NCBI RefSeq assembly: GCF_055900595.2
Contig: NZ_CM148325.1
DNA length: 64,000 nucleotides
Reading direction: 5' to 3' (one strand)
Part shown: positions 25,501-31,500 of the stretch, in pieces
Layout: every line of letters begins with the position of its first letter
Position numbering within the stretch: the stretch's first letter is position 1
Made by a program: the position numbers

Positions 25501-28500
25501 TCAAGAACGGCTTTCATATAAGCGTCCCATGCAGGCTGGGCACTCTTGGCACCGCCTTCGTAACCTGAGATCTGATCTTTAATCGCTCCGGAAGCCGTTG
25601 TATGACCGAGATTACGGCGGTGATCATCAAAGCCAATCCAAACCGAGGTCACAACGCCCGGACCGTAACCCGAGAACCACGCATCTTTCGAACTGTTAGT
25701 GGTACCCGTTTTTCCGCCGATATCATGCCGTTGTAAATCACGACCTGCTCGCCAGCCGGTACCCTGCCAGCCTGGCTCACCAAAAATATTGGTGTTCAGG
25801 GCGCTCTTAATCAGGAATGCCAGCGGAGTGTTGATGACGTGCGGTGCGTACTCCTGCGCGCCAGTCTTCGCGACTAACGCCTGATTCGCCTGCTCCAGCT
25901 GCGGCATTGGTACAGAAACATTCTGCTGCTCGCGGGAGATAGCGACATCTTCAACATCGTTATTTTCCAGCACGTTCGATTTCTGCGTATCACCGTAAAT
26001 CACCGGAATATCGCATTCCGGGCAGGCTACTTTCGGTTTCGCTTCGAAAATCACGCCGCCCTGATCGTTTTCAATTTTGCTGATAAACCACGGGTCCACC
26101 AGGAAGCCGCCGTTCGCCATTACCGCGTAGCCGCGCGCCACCTGCATTGGGGTGAAGGACGCTGAACCCAGCGCCAGCGATTCGGTGTGGACAATGTTTT
26201 GCGCCGGGAAGCCGAAGCGTTGCAGATATTCTGCAGCGTAGTCGACGCCCATCGCCCGCATTGCGCGTACCATCACCACGTTTTTCGACTGGCCCAGTCC
26301 CTGACGTAAGCGAATTGGACCGGCATACTGTGGTGGTGAGTTCTTCGGCTGCCAGTCAGAACCGGCACCTGCATCCCAGCGGGAAATTGGCACATCGTTC
26401 AACATACTTGCCAGCGTCAGACCTTTATCCATCGCCGCGGTGTAGAGGAACGGTTTGATGTTGGAACCTACCTGACGCAGTGCCTGGGTGGCGCGGTTAA
26501 ACTTGCTCTGATTGAAATCAAAGCCACCGACCAGCGCCATAACGGCACCGTTTTGCGGATTGATCGACACCAGCGCCGAGTTCACTTCCGGCACTTGTGC
26601 CAGCCACCATGTATCGCCAACCTGACGAACCCAGATTTGCTGACCCGTTTGCAGAACATCGGTCACTTTACGCGGCGTCGGTCCCTGCTGAGTATCCGAA
26701 CGGTAAGGACGCGCCCAGCGAACGCCTTCCATACTCAATGCGACGGTCGACCCGTCCGCCAGCATCGCCGTCGCTTCCTGAGGATTGGCGCTGGTGACTG
26801 CGGCAGGCAGCAGCGGACCATAGGTCGGCAGCGCCTTCAGCGTATCGGTAATCTTGTTGTTATCCCACGCCGATTCGCCCACTTTCCACAGCACATTTGC
26901 CGGGCCGCGATAGCCGTGGCGCATGTCGTAGTCCAGCACGTTATTACGTACTGCCTGCTGTGCGGCCTGCTGTACTTTGCGGGTGATGGTGGTGTAAATG
27001 CGATAACCGTCTTCATAGGCACTTTCGCCATAACGGTTATACATCTCCTGGCGCACCATTTCGCTCAGGTACGGCGCAGAGAAAGCAATCTCCGGCGCGT
27101 GATAGTTAGCGTTAATCGCCTCAGTGCGTGTCTGATCGAACTGTTGTTGGGTGATATACCCTTCATCCAGCATCCGCGACAGTACGACGTTACGCCGCGC
27201 GACGGCACGATCCATTGAGTAGAGCGGATTAAAGGTGGAAGGCGCTTTCGGCAGCCCGGCTATCACCGCCATTTCGTTCAGCGTCAGTTGGTCGACCGTT
27301 TTACCGAAATAGACTTGTGCCGCAGCACCGACACCATAGGCGCGGTAACCGAGGTAAATCTTGTTCAGATAAAGCTCGAGGATCTCGTCTTTCGTCAGCA
27401 ACTGTTCAATGCGAATCGCGAGGAAGACTTCCTTAATCTTACGCATCAGCGTGCGTTCTGGACTGAGGAAGAAGTTTCTCGCCAGCTGCTGGGTAATGGT
27501 ACTCGCCCCTTGTGACGCGTGGCCGGAGAACAGCGCCACACTTGCCGCACGGAAGATCCCCACCGGGTCAACGCCGTGATGCTCGTAGAAGCGGCTGTCT
27601 TCCGTCGCGATAAAGGCTTTCACCATCTCCGGCGGGATTTGATCCAACGTAACCGGAATACGACGTTTCTCACCGTATTGAGCAATCAGCTCGCCATCGG
27701 CGCTGTAAATCTGCATCGGAATTTGCAGGCGAACATCTTTTAATGTCGCCACATCCGGCAGTTGTGGCTCGATGTAGCGGTATAGGCCATAAATCGAGCC
27801 TGCTCCCAGCAGAATGCAACAGACTGCAAGGATCAAAAAATACTTTACGAACTTCACTGGAAATTTCCCATTTAGTTTCATTTGGGCAGTTTATAAACAA
27901 ACGCGCGGTAGTATAAAGGCAAGCCAGACGCATTGATATACCCGTCAGAGTGACGGGTGATAAGGAGATCATCACAATGGCATTTAAGATCTGGCAAATT
28001 GGTTTGCATTTACAACAGCAAGAAGCGGTGGCGGTTGCGATCGTGCGGGGCGCAAAAGAATGCTTTTTGCAACGCTGGTGGCGGTTGCCGCTGGCGAACG
28101 ACATAATCAAAGATGGGCGGATTGTCGATGCACAGCGGCTGGCTAAAACGTTGTTACCGTGGAGTCGCGAACTGCCGCAGCGTCATCACATTATGTTGGC
28201 GTTTCCCGCCAGTCGCACATTACAGCGGTCATTTCCGCGCCCGTCGATGTCCCTTGGTGAGCGGGAGCAAACGGCCTGGCTGTCCGGGACGATGGCCCGC
28301 GAGCTGGATATGGATCCGGACTCCCTGCGCTTCGATTACAGCGAAGACTCACTCAGTCCCGCCTATAACGTGACTGCCGCGCAAAGCAAAGAGCTGGCAA
28401 CGCTGCTTACTTTGGCAGAAAGGTTGCGTGTTCATGTTAGTGCGATCACCCCGGATGCCAGTGCATTACAGCGATTCCTGCCTTTTTTACCTTCTCATCA

Positions 28501-31500
28501 GCAATGTCTGGCCTGGCGTGATAACGAACAGTGGCTGTGGGCGACGCGCTATAGCTGGGGGCGCAAACTGGCGGTGGGGATGACTAGCGCGAAGGAGCTG
28601 GCGGCAGCGTTATCCGTTGATCCCGAAAGCGTCGCGCTATGTGGCGAAGGCGGATTTGACCCGTGGGAGGCGGTTTCTGTTCGTCAGCCGCCGCTACCGC
28701 CGCCAGGTGGAGACTTTGCCATCGCGCTGGGGCTGGCGCTAGGGAAGGCGTACTGATGAACCCGCCAATTAATTTTTTGCCCTGGCGACAGCAACGCCGG
28801 ACCGCTTTTCTTCGTTTCTGGTTGCTGATGTTCGTTGCGCCTCTGCTGCTGACCGTCGGGATAACGCTAATATTGCGTCTGACAAGCAACGCCGAAGCTC
28901 GCGTAGATGCCGTTTTGCTTCAGGCGGAACAACAACTCGCCCACAGCTTACAAATAACGAAACCACGTTTGCTGGAGCGCCAACAAATTCGTGAGCAGCG
29001 TTTGCAAAGGCAGCGCCAGCGACAATTTACCCGTGACTGGCAATCTGCGCTGGAAGCACTGGCGGCGCTTTTACCCGAGCACGCCTGGCTGACAACGATA
29101 AGCTGGCAGCAGGGAACGCTGGAGATCAAGGGGCTAACAACAAGCATTACCGCGTTAAACGCGCTGGAAACGTCACTCCGCCAGGATGCTTCTTTTCATC
29201 TCAATCAGCGGGGGGCCACGCAGCAGGATGCGCAGGGACGCTGGCAATTTGAGTATCAGTTAACAAGGAAGGTTAGCGATGGACATGCTCTTTGACTGGT
29301 GGTTCGCCACATCACCCCGCCTCCGCCAGCTTTGCTGGGCATTCTGGTTGATGATGTTAGTTACGCTCATTTTTCTGTCATCGACACACCAGGAAGAGAG
29401 CGACGCATTAATTCGACTACGGGCAAGTCATTACCAGCAGTGGACCGCACTGTATCGCCAGGTAAACACCACTCCCTTCAGCGAGGAAAAAACGCAGCCC
29501 TTTTCGCCACTGGATTTTCAGTTATCCGGCGCGCAACTGGTTTACTGGCATCCATCCGCGCAGGGAGGTGAGTTGGCGTTGAAAACGCTGTGGGAAGCAG
29601 TGCCGTCGGCATTTACACGGCTGGCAGAGCGCAACGTCAGCGTGAGCCGTTTTTCGTTAAGCGTGGAAGGTGATGACCTTTTGTTCACGCTACAACTGGA
29701 GACGCCGCATGAGGGTTAAACGCTGGTTGTTAGCAGGCATTGCATTGTGCCTTTTAACCGGTATGCGTGACCCTTTTAAACCGCCGGAAGATCTATGCCG
29801 GATTAGCGAACTTAGCCAGTGGCGCTATCAGGGGATGGTAGGGCGAGGCGAGCGCATCATCGGTGTAATAAAAGATGGGCAAAAAAAATGGCGACGGGTG
29901 CAGCAAAACGATGTGCTGGAAAACGGCTGGACGATCTTACAGCTAACGCCAGACGCACTAACGCTGGGAACCGGGACAAACTGCGAACCGCCACAATGGT
30001 TGTGGCAACGGCAAGGAGATACAAATGAAGCAATGGATAGCCGCACTACTGTTGATGCTGATACCCGGCGTACAGGCGGCAAAGCCGCAAAAAGTGACGC
30101 TGATGGTGGATGACGTTCCGGTAGCTCAGGTGTTGCAGGCGCTGGCTGAACAGGAGAAGTTGAACCTGGTGGTGTCGCCAGACGTCAGCGGTACGGTGTC
30201 GTTACATCTAACAGATGTTCCCTGGAAGCAAGTACTACAAACTGTAGTGAAAAGCGCCGGACTGATAACGCGTCAGGAGGGCAACATTCTCTCGGTGCAT
30301 TCCGTTGCCTGGCAGAATGACAATATCGCCCGTCAGGAGGCGGAGCAGGCGCGGGCGCAGGCAAATCTGCCGCTGGAAAATCGCAGTATAACCCTGCAAT
30401 ACGCCGACGCGGGAGAACTGGCGAAAGCGGGGGAGAAGCTACTGAGTGCCAAAGGGAGTATGACCGTCGATAAACGCACCAATCGCCTTTTGCTGCGAGA
30501 TAACAAAGCGGCGTTAAGCGCGCTTGAACAGTGGGTAGCGCAAATGGATCTGCCGGTCGGGCAGGTTGAGCTGTCGGCGCATATTGTCACCATTAATGAA
30601 AAAAGTTTGCGTGAGTTAGGCGTGAAATGGACGTTGGCTGATGCGCAACAAACTGGTGGCGTTGGGCAAGTCACCACGCTTGGCAGCGACCTCTCCGTAG
30701 CGACGGCGACAACGCATGTCGGTTTTAACATTGGACGCATCAACGGACGTTTACTGGATCTTGAGCTTTCCGCGCTCGAACAAAAACAGCAGCTGGATAT
30801 TATCGCCAGCCCGCGTCTGCTGGCCTCACATCTTCAGCCTGCCAGCATTAAACAGGGGAGCGAAATTCCATATCAGGTTTCCAGCGGGGAAAGTGGCGCG
30901 ACGTCGGTGGAATTTAAAGAGGCCGTCCTGGGGATGGAAGTTACGCCCACGGTGTTACAAAAAGCTCGCATCCGGCTGAAATTACACATCAGCCAGAACG
31001 TTCCGGGGCAGGTGCTACAGCAGGCCGATGGCGAAGTGCTGGCGATTGATAAGCAGGAGATCGAAACGCAGGTCGAGGTCAAAAGCGGAGAAACGTTGGC
31101 GCTGGGTGGCATTTTTACCCGTAAAAATAAATCGGGTCAGGATAGCGTACCGTTGCTTGGCGACATTCCCTGGTTCGGGCAATTATTTCGTCATGACGGA
31201 AAAGAAGATGAACGACGCGAGTTAGTGGTGTTTATCACGCCACGACTGGTTTCCAGTGAGTAAACAGCCGTAAAAGCGGTAATGTTTTTACGCTGAACGT
31301 GTTTCATCTATTTGACGCGCGCAGGTATTTAGCATACAAGGAGTACCGATTTGAGAGTTGGTGCTCTTCGCTGCCTGCGTTCCATGATGATGATTTATCA
31401 TTCAGGCGGCATTTTGCTGTCTTTTTTACGCTAATCTTACCCGGTGATTTATCGCCAGAGCGGTGGTAGCAAGGCAGCGCGCTTGCAGCGACCAGATATG

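What the first reader, a model, noticed from the sequence alone, without database searches (positions are those of the whole stretch)
27977..31263. hofMNOPQ DNA-uptake-like operon intact, with an 89-nt hofP/hofQ overlap
The five co-directional genes (PilMNOP-like plus secretin) overlap at every junction: 1 nt (hofM/N), 17 nt (hofN/O), 11 nt (hofO/P) and 89 nt (hofP/Q, different frames). The long hofP/hofQ overlap is unusual and either reflects a mis-set HofQ start or true overlapping coding. The ComF-like gntX at the other end of the window is an unlinked partner in the same DNA-utilization function.
Basis: seen in the sequence. Interest (0 to 1): 0.3.

Follow-up and report, generated by a model that had tools for sequence, protein, structure and literature searches.

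The report
Real 89-base hofP/hofQ gene overlap
This is the standard E. coli hofMNOPQ DNA-uptake operon; its odd 89-base overlap between hofP and hofQ is real, conserved across the enterobacterial family, and encodes a floppy HofP tail that evolution keeps free of cysteine and aromatic residues.

Summary
hofM, hofN, hofO, hofP and hofQ sit at 27977-31263 with overlaps of 1, 17, 11 and 89 nt. These coordinates match the RefSeq annotation, and the locus is present in 5425 of 5426 complete E. coli genomes.

The hofQ start at 30025 is not mis-set. It is the only start that gives a signal peptide, it has an AAGGAG Shine-Dalgarno, and it is conserved in 79 Enterobacteriaceae species. The hofP stop (30111-30113) lies downstream of the predicted first codon of mature HofQ, so any start that keeps a signal peptide leaves an overlap.

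In 64 of 79 species hofP stops at, or one codon before, the same site: a TGA inside the hofQ codons for a conserved Asp-Asp/Glu. Six outgroup loci (one of them Edwardsiella) have a tight junction, ATGA in three. A 1-nt difference in the spacer between the Shine-Dalgarno and the ATG separates the two states.

The overlap-encoded HofP tail (residues 106-134) has no conserved residue and is predicted disordered. Even so, hofQ synonymous sites inside the overlap avoid T wherever T would put Cys, Tyr, Trp or Phe into HofP (Cys: 0 observed, 53-96 expected). Non-overlapping controls show no such avoidance.

This is therefore genuine dual coding, but the constraint is on tail composition only. The feature is already annotated and of modest interest.

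The parts
27701..27826 (+). Published yrfD (hofM) promoter fragment that binds CRP. It lies inside the 5' coding region of the divergent mrcA gene. Weak CRP-S-like sites (7 of 10 core matches) sit at 27709-27730 and 27790-27811.
   Evidence: The primers from PMC1635313 map exactly to 27701-27720 and 27805-27826. The motif scan is. Sxy/CRP-dependent induction of yrfD is taken from the paper and was not tested here.
27977..28756 (+). hofM (259 aa), a PilM-like cytoplasmic component. AAGGAG lies 9 nt upstream of the ATG.
   Evidence: Sequence matches to PilM and T2SS-L are weak only.
28756..29295 (+). hofN (179 aa), PilN family. It overlaps hofM by 1 nt (TGATG).
   Evidence: Pfam PF05137 scores 37.9 bits against a cutoff of 22.8.
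29279..29719 (+). hofO (146 aa). It overlaps hofN by 17 nt.
   Evidence: Pfam PF25319 (HofO) scores 89 bits.
29709..30023 (+). hofP core, codons 1-105. It has an N-terminal hydrophobic helix followed by a PilP/GspC-HR-like beta domain. It overlaps hofO by 11 nt. All conserved residues lie here, including the invariant C30 and C92.
   Evidence: Pfam PF10748 scores 266 bits. Alignment A1 is. AF2 pLDDT is above 90 for roughly residues 30-100. The top 13 Foldseek PDB hits are all PilP or GspC/PulC/LspC HR domains.
30012..30017 (+). hofQ Shine-Dalgarno AAGGAG, 7 nt before the ATG. It sits inside hofP codons Q102-G103-D104.
   Evidence: An SD-like motif is present in 79 of 79 species. The region is unpaired in the predicted mRNA fold.
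30024..30113 (+). hofP tail: codons 106-134 plus the TGA stop at 30111-30113. It is disordered and variable in sequence. All but its first base (30024) lies inside hofQ.
   Evidence: No conserved column lies beyond G103. pLDDT is below 50 for residues 106-134. Cys, Tyr, Trp and Phe are depleted relative to the synonymous-resampling null.
30025..30078 (+). hofQ signal peptide, codons 1-18: MKQWIAALLLMLIPGVQA, with predicted cleavage after VQA.
   Evidence: It has an n-region Lys, a hydrophobic core and an AXA-type site in all 79 species. The PDB PilQ alignments begin at HofQ residues 21-23.
30025..31263 (+). hofQ (412 aa), the outer-membrane secretin, with STN/N0, Secretin_N and Secretin domains.
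   Evidence: NCBIfam NF007851 scores 849.8 bits against a cutoff of 598, and TIGR02515 scores 444 bits. The nearest solved structure is V. cholerae PilQ 6w6m, E = 1e-74.
30109..30114 (+). hofQ codons D29-D30 (GAT GAC), whose T-G-A forms the hofP stop.
   Evidence: hofP stops at this homologous site in 58 of 79 species and one codon earlier in 6.

Best explanation
This is the canonical E. coli hofMNOPQ operon. It encodes a PilM/N/O/P-like alignment complex and the HofQ secretin of the Sxy/CRP-induced DNA-uptake machinery. The 89-nt hofP/hofQ overlap is a real, family-wide 3' extension of hofP and not an annotation error. The ancestral junction was probably tight, with a stop/start overlap such as ATGA. 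I infer that a 1-nt change in the short spacer between the hofQ Shine-Dalgarno and its ATG put that stop out of frame. In the new phase, a hofP stop needs a hofQ codon ending in T followed by a codon starting AA, AG or GA. The hydrophobic signal peptide offers few such places. hofP therefore runs through the whole signal-peptide coding region and usually ends at the first strong opportunity, GAT-GAN in the conserved HofQ motif V-D-D/E-V-P-V. The added 29 residues form a disordered C-terminal tail on the PilP-like HofP core. The tail is translated. Selection on it is visible as avoidance of hofQ synonymous T wherever T would give Cys, Tyr, Trp, Phe or a stop in HofP. No particular tail sequence is required, and several lineages have shortened or lost the tail. 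hofQ is initiated from its own strong, unstructured ribosome-binding site rather than by termination-reinitiation.
For: Coordinates and annotation. hofQ start: ATG 30025 is the first start in its ORF. The next candidates (TTG 30052, ATG 30055) would delete the n-region and half of the hydrophobic core. A homologous start with a signal peptide and an SD is present in 79 of 79 species. Conservation of the overlap: 77 of 79 species overlap by 38-140 nt, with a mode of 89 nt in 38 species. hofP stops at the homologous D29 site in 58 species and at V28 in 6. Outgroups: Edwardsiella hoshinae, Ca. Symbiodolus and four unnamed loci have junctions ranging from a 30-nt gap to an 11-nt overlap. ATGA occurs in three of them, and their HofP-like proteins have no such tail, most being 104-113 aa. 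Spacer toggle: Leclercia sp. L050 and MAG L048 have a spacer 1 nt longer than E. coli's and end hofP at ATGA. Leclercia adecarboxylata L056 has n+3 and an 86-nt overlap. Neutral expectation: the frame stays open to D29 in 21 of 47 species expected against 33 observed, and GAT is used 75% of the time before GA-initial codons elsewhere in hofQ. Tail properties: there is no conserved column after G103, and pLDDT is below 50 exactly for residues 106-134. Selection: third-position T in hofQ has an observed/expected ratio of 0.28-0.32 in codons 2-18 and 0.56 in codons 19-28. It is 0.95 just after the overlap, 0.96 in outgroup hofQ genes and 0.96 in the hofP signal-peptide region. Tail Cys is 0 observed against 52.5 expected (45 species) or 95.9 expected (77 species). 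It is 0 in each of 12 clades. Tyr is 6 against 29, Trp 1 against 6.7 and Phe 3 against 8.8, while Ser is 88 against 94. hofQ codons beyond an early hofP stop show 10 against 8.9. There is no conserved mRNA structure at the hofQ start. System function comes from the literature: Sxy/CRP-S induction of yrfD (PMC1635313) and hofQ-dependent DNA uptake (PMC3330819).
Against: There is no direct evidence here that the tail is made in cells, such as ribosome profiling or peptide data. The expected values ignore phylogenetic relatedness, although the zero Cys count holds in every clade and synonymous codon identity in codons 8-18 is at background level. GAT at D29 is kept in 10 of 11 species where it is not the hofP stop, so the stop position itself shows no evidence of being selected. 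The ancestral state is inferred from only six outgroup loci, four of them unnamed metagenomic contigs whose hofQ starts are gene-caller calls. Hofp-frame stops are depleted in hofQ codons 1-18 (1 observed against 13.5 expected). Lys is enriched about 2-fold. Both hint at constraints this account does not fully explain.
Confidence: 0.8

Rival explanations
1. The overlap is an annotation artefact. HofQ really starts at a downstream codon, so the genes do not overlap or barely do.
For: Misplaced starts of the downstream gene were the commonest cause of co-directional overlaps above 60 bp in a survey of 338 genomes (PMC2478687). In-frame TTG 30052 and ATG 30055 exist.
Against: Starting at 30055 would leave MLIPGVQA, which is too short to be a signal peptide, and a secretin must be exported. 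Even then the overlap would be 59 nt. The predicted first mature codon (A19, 30079) lies upstream of the hofP stop (30113). The ATG at the homologous site, with a Lys/Arg n-region, a hydrophobic core, an AXA-type site and an SD, is conserved in 79 of 79 species.
Confidence: 0.03
2. The overlap is real as an ORF but selectively invisible. The tail is a neutral run-on, or is not translated to any meaningful extent, and its length is set only by where stops can occur.
For: The tail has no conserved residue and is predicted disordered. It varies from 0 to 46 residues past the hofQ ATG (overlaps of 4-140 nt) and was lost in two lineages. Synonymous codon identity in hofQ codons 8-18 is at background level. 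The homologous stop site is the most probable neutral outcome. The operon is barely expressed under laboratory conditions (PMC1635313).
Against: The tail has 0 Cys in 2164 residues against 96 expected, and Tyr, Trp and Phe are depleted 3- to 7-fold while Ser is at expectation. The depletion of third-position T disappears beyond the overlap, in outgroup hofQ genes, in the hofP signal-peptide region and beyond early hofP stops.
Confidence: 0.12
3. The tail or the overlap has a positive function. The tail could be a flexible Lys-rich linker contacting HofQ, peptidoglycan or DNA. Alternatively the overlap could set the HofP:HofQ ratio, because hofP ribosomes cross the hofQ start.
For: The overlap is kept in 77 of 79 species. 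hofP-frame stops are depleted in hofQ codons 1-18 (1 against 13.5). Lys is enriched about 2-fold after context correction. The frame stays open to D29 more often than the neutral expectation (33 against 21 of 47).
Against: There is no position-specific conservation. At least about six independent shortenings and two complete losses have occurred, one of them within a single genus. No conserved RNA structure would make hofQ initiation depend on hofP translation. The outgroups manage without a tail.
Confidence: 0.2

Closest known systems
E. coli K-12 hofMNOPQ (formerly yrfDCBA-hofQ), the Sxy/CRP-S-regulated DNA-uptake operon
   Same: It has the same genes, order, lengths and overlaps. The RefSeq annotation of an identical strain has the same coordinates. 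The published yrfD promoter primers match the window exactly.
   Different: Nothing structural differs. This strain is about 97% identical to most E. coli genomes across the locus.
Type IVa pilus PilMNOPQ alignment complex and secretin (Pseudomonas, Neisseria, Myxococcus, V. cholerae competence pilus)
   Same: The gene order is the same. HofN carries a PilN domain. The HofP core is predicted to fold like the PilP/GspC HR domain, which binds the secretin N0 domain. HofQ aligns with PilQ over residues 23-409 (6w6m, E = 1e-74).
   Different: HofM, HofO and HofP are barely recognisable as PilM, PilO and PilP by sequence. HofP has no conserved lipobox cysteine, whereas PilP is described as a lipoprotein (PDB titles). 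HofQ lacks the long N-terminal extension of PilQ (412 aa against 571-901 aa).
Long phase-1 same-strand overlaps made by 3' extension of the upstream gene (Palleja 2008 category iii; Fonseca 2013; Sabath 2008)
   Same: [quoted passage not shown]
   Different: Palleja et al. judged none of 715 co-directional overlaps above 60 bp to be real. Here both gene ends are well supported, the overlap is conserved across a bacterial family, and the second frame leaves a selection signature.
ATGA / TGATG stop-start junctions used for translational coupling
   Same: The hofM/hofN junction is TGATG. Three of the six outgroup loci, plus Leclercia sp. L050 and MAG L048, have ATGA at the hofP/hofQ junction.
   Different: In E. 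coli the hofP stop lies 89 nt past the hofQ ATG, which I take to be too far for termination-reinitiation (my own knowledge, not tested). hofQ must rely on its own Shine-Dalgarno.

Membership tests
HofMNOPQ / PilMNOPQ-type DNA-uptake (type IV pilus) assembly operon | Five co-directional genes in the order M-N-O-P-secretin, tightly packed | tested here: met
   Overlaps are 1, 17, 11 and 89 nt.
HofMNOPQ / PilMNOPQ-type DNA-uptake (type IV pilus) assembly operon | Outer-membrane secretin with N0/STN, Secretin_N and Secretin domains and a signal peptide | tested here: met
   NF007851 scores 849.8 bits (cutoff 598) and TIGR02515 scores 444 bits (cutoff 284). The signal peptide is MKQWIAALLLMLIPGVQA.
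HofMNOPQ / PilMNOPQ-type DNA-uptake (type IV pilus) assembly operon | PilN-family protein | tested here: met
   PF05137 scores 37.9 bits against a cutoff of 22.8.
HofMNOPQ / PilMNOPQ-type DNA-uptake (type IV pilus) assembly operon | PilM (actin-like) protein | tested here: inconclusive
   TIGR01175 scores 15.8 bits against a cutoff of 133. T2SS-L scores 18.2 bits against 25.5. The structure was not modelled.
HofMNOPQ / PilMNOPQ-type DNA-uptake (type IV pilus) assembly operon | PilP-like HR domain that docks on the secretin | tested here: met
   The AF2 core has pLDDT above 90. The top 13 Foldseek PDB hits are PilP or GspC/PulC/LspC HR domains. The profile hit to PilP 3jc8 has E = 0.008. Docking itself was not tested.
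PilP lipoprotein family | N-terminal lipobox with an invariant Cys | tested here: not met
   E. coli has I-A-L-C14, with Leu at position -1. C14 is not a conserved column in 47 species.
HofMNOPQ / PilMNOPQ-type DNA-uptake (type IV pilus) assembly operon | Sxy- and CRP-dependent promoter with CRP-S sites | tested here: inconclusive
   The published CRP-binding fragment maps to 27701-27826. Only 7-of-10 core matches were found. Regulation was not testable here.
HofMNOPQ / PilMNOPQ-type DNA-uptake (type IV pilus) assembly operon | Requirement for DNA uptake or use of DNA as a nutrient | not testable with these tools
   From the literature only: a hofQ::kan mutant abolishes Sxy-induced transformation (PMC3330819).
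Genuine dual-coding same-strand overlap | Both gene boundaries are correct | tested here: met
   The hofQ start is supported. The hofP stop is unambiguous, and the region is present at 95-100% identity in 5425 genomes.
Genuine dual-coding same-strand overlap | Overlap conserved beyond close relatives | tested here: met
   77 of 79 Enterobacteriaceae species have it, down to about 35% HofP identity.
Genuine dual-coding same-strand overlap | Selection detectable in both reading frames | tested here: met
   The hofQ frame keeps the signal-peptide architecture and the VDDVPV motif. In the hofP frame, Cys is 0 against 53-96 expected and aromatics are depleted 3- to 7-fold, while the controls are near 1. 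There is no position-specific conservation.
Genuine dual-coding same-strand overlap | The overlapping part of the upstream protein is made in cells | not testable with these tools
   This needs ribosome profiling or detection of full-length HofP after Sxy induction.

The most novel reading that the evidence does not exclude
The hofP/hofQ junction is a bona fide, family-wide co-directional overlap of more than 60 nt. A survey of 715 such overlaps (PMC2478687) judged none of them real. In this reading the overlapping HofP tail is not merely tolerated but serves a purpose. It could be a flexible, Lys-enriched, Cys- and aromatic-free periplasmic linker, or a device that makes hofP ribosomes traverse the hofQ start and so tunes secretin output. 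That would explain why hofP-frame stops are almost absent from the first 18 hofQ codons.
Probability: 0.2. Interest if true: 0.45.

Novelty: already known. Interest (0 to 1): 0.3.

Why it matters
The operon and its overlap are already in every E. coli annotation, so nothing changes for genome annotation except reassurance that neither gene boundary should be 'corrected'. The modest added value concerns overlapping genes. This is a clean natural example of how a long same-strand overlap can arise from a 1-nt change in a ribosome-binding-site spacer. It shows why a signal-peptide coding region lets the intruding frame run on. It also shows selection acting on an overlap-encoded tail purely through composition (no Cys, few aromatics). 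That kind of signal is missed by standard tests based on conservation or synonymous rates. The case also cautions against automatic rules that flag all co-directional overlaps above 60 bp as errors.

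Tried and rejected
1. I tested whether GAT at hofQ D29 is kept in order to preserve the hofP stop. GAT occurs in 73 of 79 species against 50 expected. However, GAT is used 75% of the time before GA-initial codons elsewhere in hofQ. It is also kept in 10 of 11 species where it is not the stop. I rejected this as evidence.

2. Synonymous codon identity as a dual-coding test. It is raised only in hofQ codons 1-7 (0.66-0.70 against a control maximum of 0.54), which a translation-initiation constraint could equally explain. It is at background in codons 8-18. Taken alone it is uninformative.

3. A conserved mRNA hairpin masking the hofQ start, which would couple hofQ translation to hofP. 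No such structure was found: z = -0.45, and the alignment fold has 5 pairs and no covariation.

4. A strong CRP-S motif (8 or more of 10 core matches) upstream of hofM. None was found in 27500-27990. Only 7-of-10 sites lie at the ends of the published fragment.

5. Literature on the hofP/hofQ overlap. Two papers mention both genes, and neither appears from its title or abstract to concern the overlap. The old gene names gave nothing relevant. The pair is not in the supplements of Palleja 2008.

6. The sigma-70 promoter and intrinsic-terminator scan over 27600-31500 gave no more hits than shuffled sequence.

7. HofP as a lipoprotein like PilP was rejected, because there is no conserved lipobox Cys.

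Full report
**What is there**

The window is E. coli chromosome. The region reads mrcA (- strand), then hofM-hofN-hofO-hofP-hofQ (+ strand), then aroK, aroB and damX.
- The five hof ORFs lie at 27977-28756, 28756-29295, 29279-29719, 29709-30113 and 30025-31263.
- They overlap by 1, 17, 11 and 89 nt, and hofQ is one base ahead of the hofP frame.
- These are the exact coordinates of the RefSeq/PGAP annotation of a 100%-identical strain.
- The locus is present at 95-100% identity in 5425 of 5426 complete E. coli genomes.
- In the sequence, each gene is preceded by a Shine-Dalgarno-like motif.
- A ComF-like gntX (zinc ribbon plus phosphoribosyltransferase) lies about 25 kb away at about 2257-2940 on the - strand.

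**Identity of the proteins**

- HofN matches Pfam PilN, HofO matches PF25319 and HofP matches PF10748 over its full length.
- HofQ has STN, Secretin_N and Secretin domains. It scores 850 bits on NCBIfam HofQ and 444 bits on TIGR02515 PilQ.
- The nearest solved structure to HofQ is the V. cholerae competence-pilus secretin 6w6m (E = 1e-74), aligned from HofQ residue 23.
- HofM resembles PilM only weakly by sequence.
- An AlphaFold model of HofP built on 47 family members is confident (pLDDT above 90) for roughly residues 30-100. Its 13 best PDB matches are all PilP or GspC/PulC/LspC HR domains.
- Unlike PilP, described as a lipoprotein in the PDB titles, HofP has no conserved lipobox cysteine. 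It does have two invariant cysteines, C30 and C92.
- From the literature, the yrfD (hofM) promoter binds CRP and is induced 16-fold by Sxy (PMC1635313). The published fragment maps to 27701-27826, inside mrcA.
- Also from the literature, a hofQ knockout abolishes Sxy-induced DNA uptake (PMC3330819).

**Is the hofQ start mis-set? No**

- ATG 30025 is the first start codon in its ORF.
- It yields MKQWIAALLLMLIPGVQA followed by AKPQ, a textbook signal peptide, with AAGGAG 7 nt upstream.
- The next in-frame starts (30052, 30055) would remove the charged n-region and half of the hydrophobic core.
- In 79 Enterobacteriaceae species recovered with HofQ, a start at the homologous position is present in all 79. 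It is ATG in 74 and GTG in 5, and all have a signal peptide and an SD-like motif.
- The predicted first mature codon (A19, 30079) lies upstream of the hofP stop (30111-30113). No start that keeps HofQ exportable can remove the overlap.

**How conserved is the overlap?**

- In 77 of the 79 species hofP reads 38-140 nt into hofQ. The mode is 89 nt, found in 38 species.
- In 58 species the stop is at the homologous site: the T of the Asp-29 codon plus the GA of the next Asp/Glu codon, in the conserved HofQ motif V-D-D/E-V-P-V. In 6 more species it lies one codon earlier.
- The six outgroup loci reached through more distant HofQ relatives have tight junctions. They include Edwardsiella hoshinae and Ca. 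Symbiodolus, and four are unnamed.
- Those junctions are ATGA in three, an 11-nt overlap in one, and gaps of 1 and 30 nt in the other two. Their HofP-like proteins have no such tail, and most are 104-113 aa.
- Within the family, Leclercia sp. L050 and MAG L048 also end hofP at ATGA. Their SD-ATG spacer is 1 nt longer than E. coli's.
- Leclercia adecarboxylata has a spacer of n+3 and an 86-nt overlap.
- A 1-nt indel in this spacer therefore toggles between a 4-nt and a roughly 89-nt overlap. The long form most likely arose by loss of an ancestral tight stop/start junction (inference).

**Why 89 nt?**

In this phase each hofP codon is made of the third base of one hofQ codon plus the first two bases of the next. 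A stop needs NNT followed by a codon for Asn, Lys, Ser(AGY), Arg(AGR), Asp or Glu. A hydrophobic signal peptide has few such places. E. coli has three before codon 30: A19-K20, V28-D29 and D29-D30. At the last one, T is used 75% of the time in this context elsewhere in hofQ. With context-specific codon usage, the frame is expected to stay open to D29 in 21 of 47 species, and it does so in 33. The length of the overlap therefore needs no special explanation.

**Is the tail just noise? The evidence says no**

The tail (HofP 106-134) has no conserved column. It is the only segment with pLDDT below 50, and that segment coincides exactly with the overlap-encoded residues. Synonymous codon identity in hofQ codons 8-18 is at background level. 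The composition of hofQ synonymous sites is nevertheless strongly skewed.

| Region tested for third-position T | Observed / expected |
|---|---|
| hofQ codons 2-7 (overlap) | 0.28 |
| hofQ codons 8-18 (overlap) | 0.32 |
| hofQ codons 19-28 (overlap) | 0.56 |
| hofQ codons 31-59 (just past the overlap) | 0.95 |
| Six outgroup hofQ genes, codons 2-28 (no overlap) | 0.96 |
| hofP's own signal-peptide region | 0.96 |
| hofQ codons beyond an early hofP stop | 1.12 |

Splitting the overlap sites by what a T would encode in HofP gives a deficit that depends on the amino acid (45 species pruned to below 85% hofQ nucleotide identity):

| HofP-frame residue | Observed | Expected |
|---|---|---|
| Cys | 0 | 52.5 |
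| Tyr | 6 | 29 |
| Trp | 1 | 6.7 |
| Phe | 3 | 8.8 |
| Ser | 88 | 94 |

- Across all 77 overlap species, the 2164 tail residues contain 0 Cys against 95.9 expected.
- Cys is 0 in each of 12 clades, where the expectation ranges from 0.5 to 16.
- The same frame elsewhere in hofQ gives ratios of 0.85-1.4.
- In the E. coli window itself, none of the first 28 hofQ codons ends in T, and several use rare codons (ATA twice, CTA, CCC).

The simplest reading is that the tail is translated. Residues that would harm a periplasmic, disulfide-bonded protein (free Cys, exposed aromatics) are purged, while the sequence is otherwise free to drift. The link to the C30-C92 pair is my inference.

**Loose ends**

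- hofP-frame stops are nearly absent from hofQ codons 1-18 (1 against 13.5 expected) but occur at about the neutral rate in codons 19-28 (16 against 21).
- Lys is about 2-fold enriched after context correction.
- Both leave room for a weak positive role of the tail or of the overlap.
- Against that, the tail has been shortened at least about six times and lost twice, and no conserved RNA structure ties hofQ initiation to hofP translation.
- The expectations do not model phylogeny. There is no direct evidence of translation here.

**Comparison with what is known, and verdict**

The locus is the known E. coli hof operon, and the overlap is in the reference annotation. In the overlapping-gene literature it belongs to the class of 3' extensions of the upstream gene. 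A survey of 715 co-directional overlaps above 60 bp treated that whole class as error (PMC2478687). Neutral models can generate such overlaps (PMC3887535 and PMC2542354). The hofP/hofQ pair is a well-supported exception to the rule that long co-directional overlaps are mispredictions. Its composition-only selection signature does not seem to have been described. That is a niche point. Overall the finding is real, correctly interpreted, already annotated and of modest interest.

Noticed in passing
L002 (E. coli CNR20180903, NZ_OZ369161.1), locus 5144-5290: This is the one complete E. coli genome in which less than 80% of the region matched (67%). hofQ is cut off after about 49 codons and abuts a truncated barA on the opposite strand, which points to a rearrangement or deletion with a breakpoint inside hofQ.
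   Followed up: partly
L035 (Citrobacter koseri NCTC10786), about 3380-3480: hofQ is frameshifted near codon 20. The frame that starts at the hofQ ATG runs into the HofP-tail frame (…GKSAKRDAGGG*), and the mature HofQ continues in another frame. This is either a pseudogene or a homopolymer error in the assembly.
   Followed up: partly
L063 (record titled Chryseobacterium sp. 18061); proteins P0057 and P0033: An enterobacterial hof locus sits in an assembly labelled Chryseobacterium. HofP proteins are also labelled Acinetobacter baumannii and Providencia rettgeri. These are probably contaminated or mislabelled records.
   Followed up: no
window 27857-27881: The mechanical mrcA ORF starts at ATG 27881 (858 aa), but RefSeq annotates the start at 27857 (850 aa). 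The hofM promoter fragment with its candidate CRP-S sites lies inside the mrcA 5' coding region.
   Followed up: partly
window 30034-30041 (hofQ codons W4-I5, TGG ATA): The first seven hofQ codons show unusually high synonymous conservation (0.66-0.70 against a control maximum of 0.54). This includes the rare Ile codon ATA across many genera. It produces the recurrent HofP motif A-M-D-S/K and a 4- to 5-fold Met excess in the tail. Whether the cause is translation initiation or the hofP frame was not resolved.
   Followed up: partly
window 31264-31663: A 400-nt spacer separates hofQ from aroK. It holds two terminator-like hairpins (31267-31280 and 31404-31422 with a T-run), no more than shuffled sequence gives.
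   Followed up: no
window 30015-30017 (HofP G103 codon GGA): The last nearly invariant HofP residue, G103, is encoded by the core of the hofQ Shine-Dalgarno (AAGGAG). Its conservation may reflect the ribosome-binding site rather than the protein.
   Followed up: no
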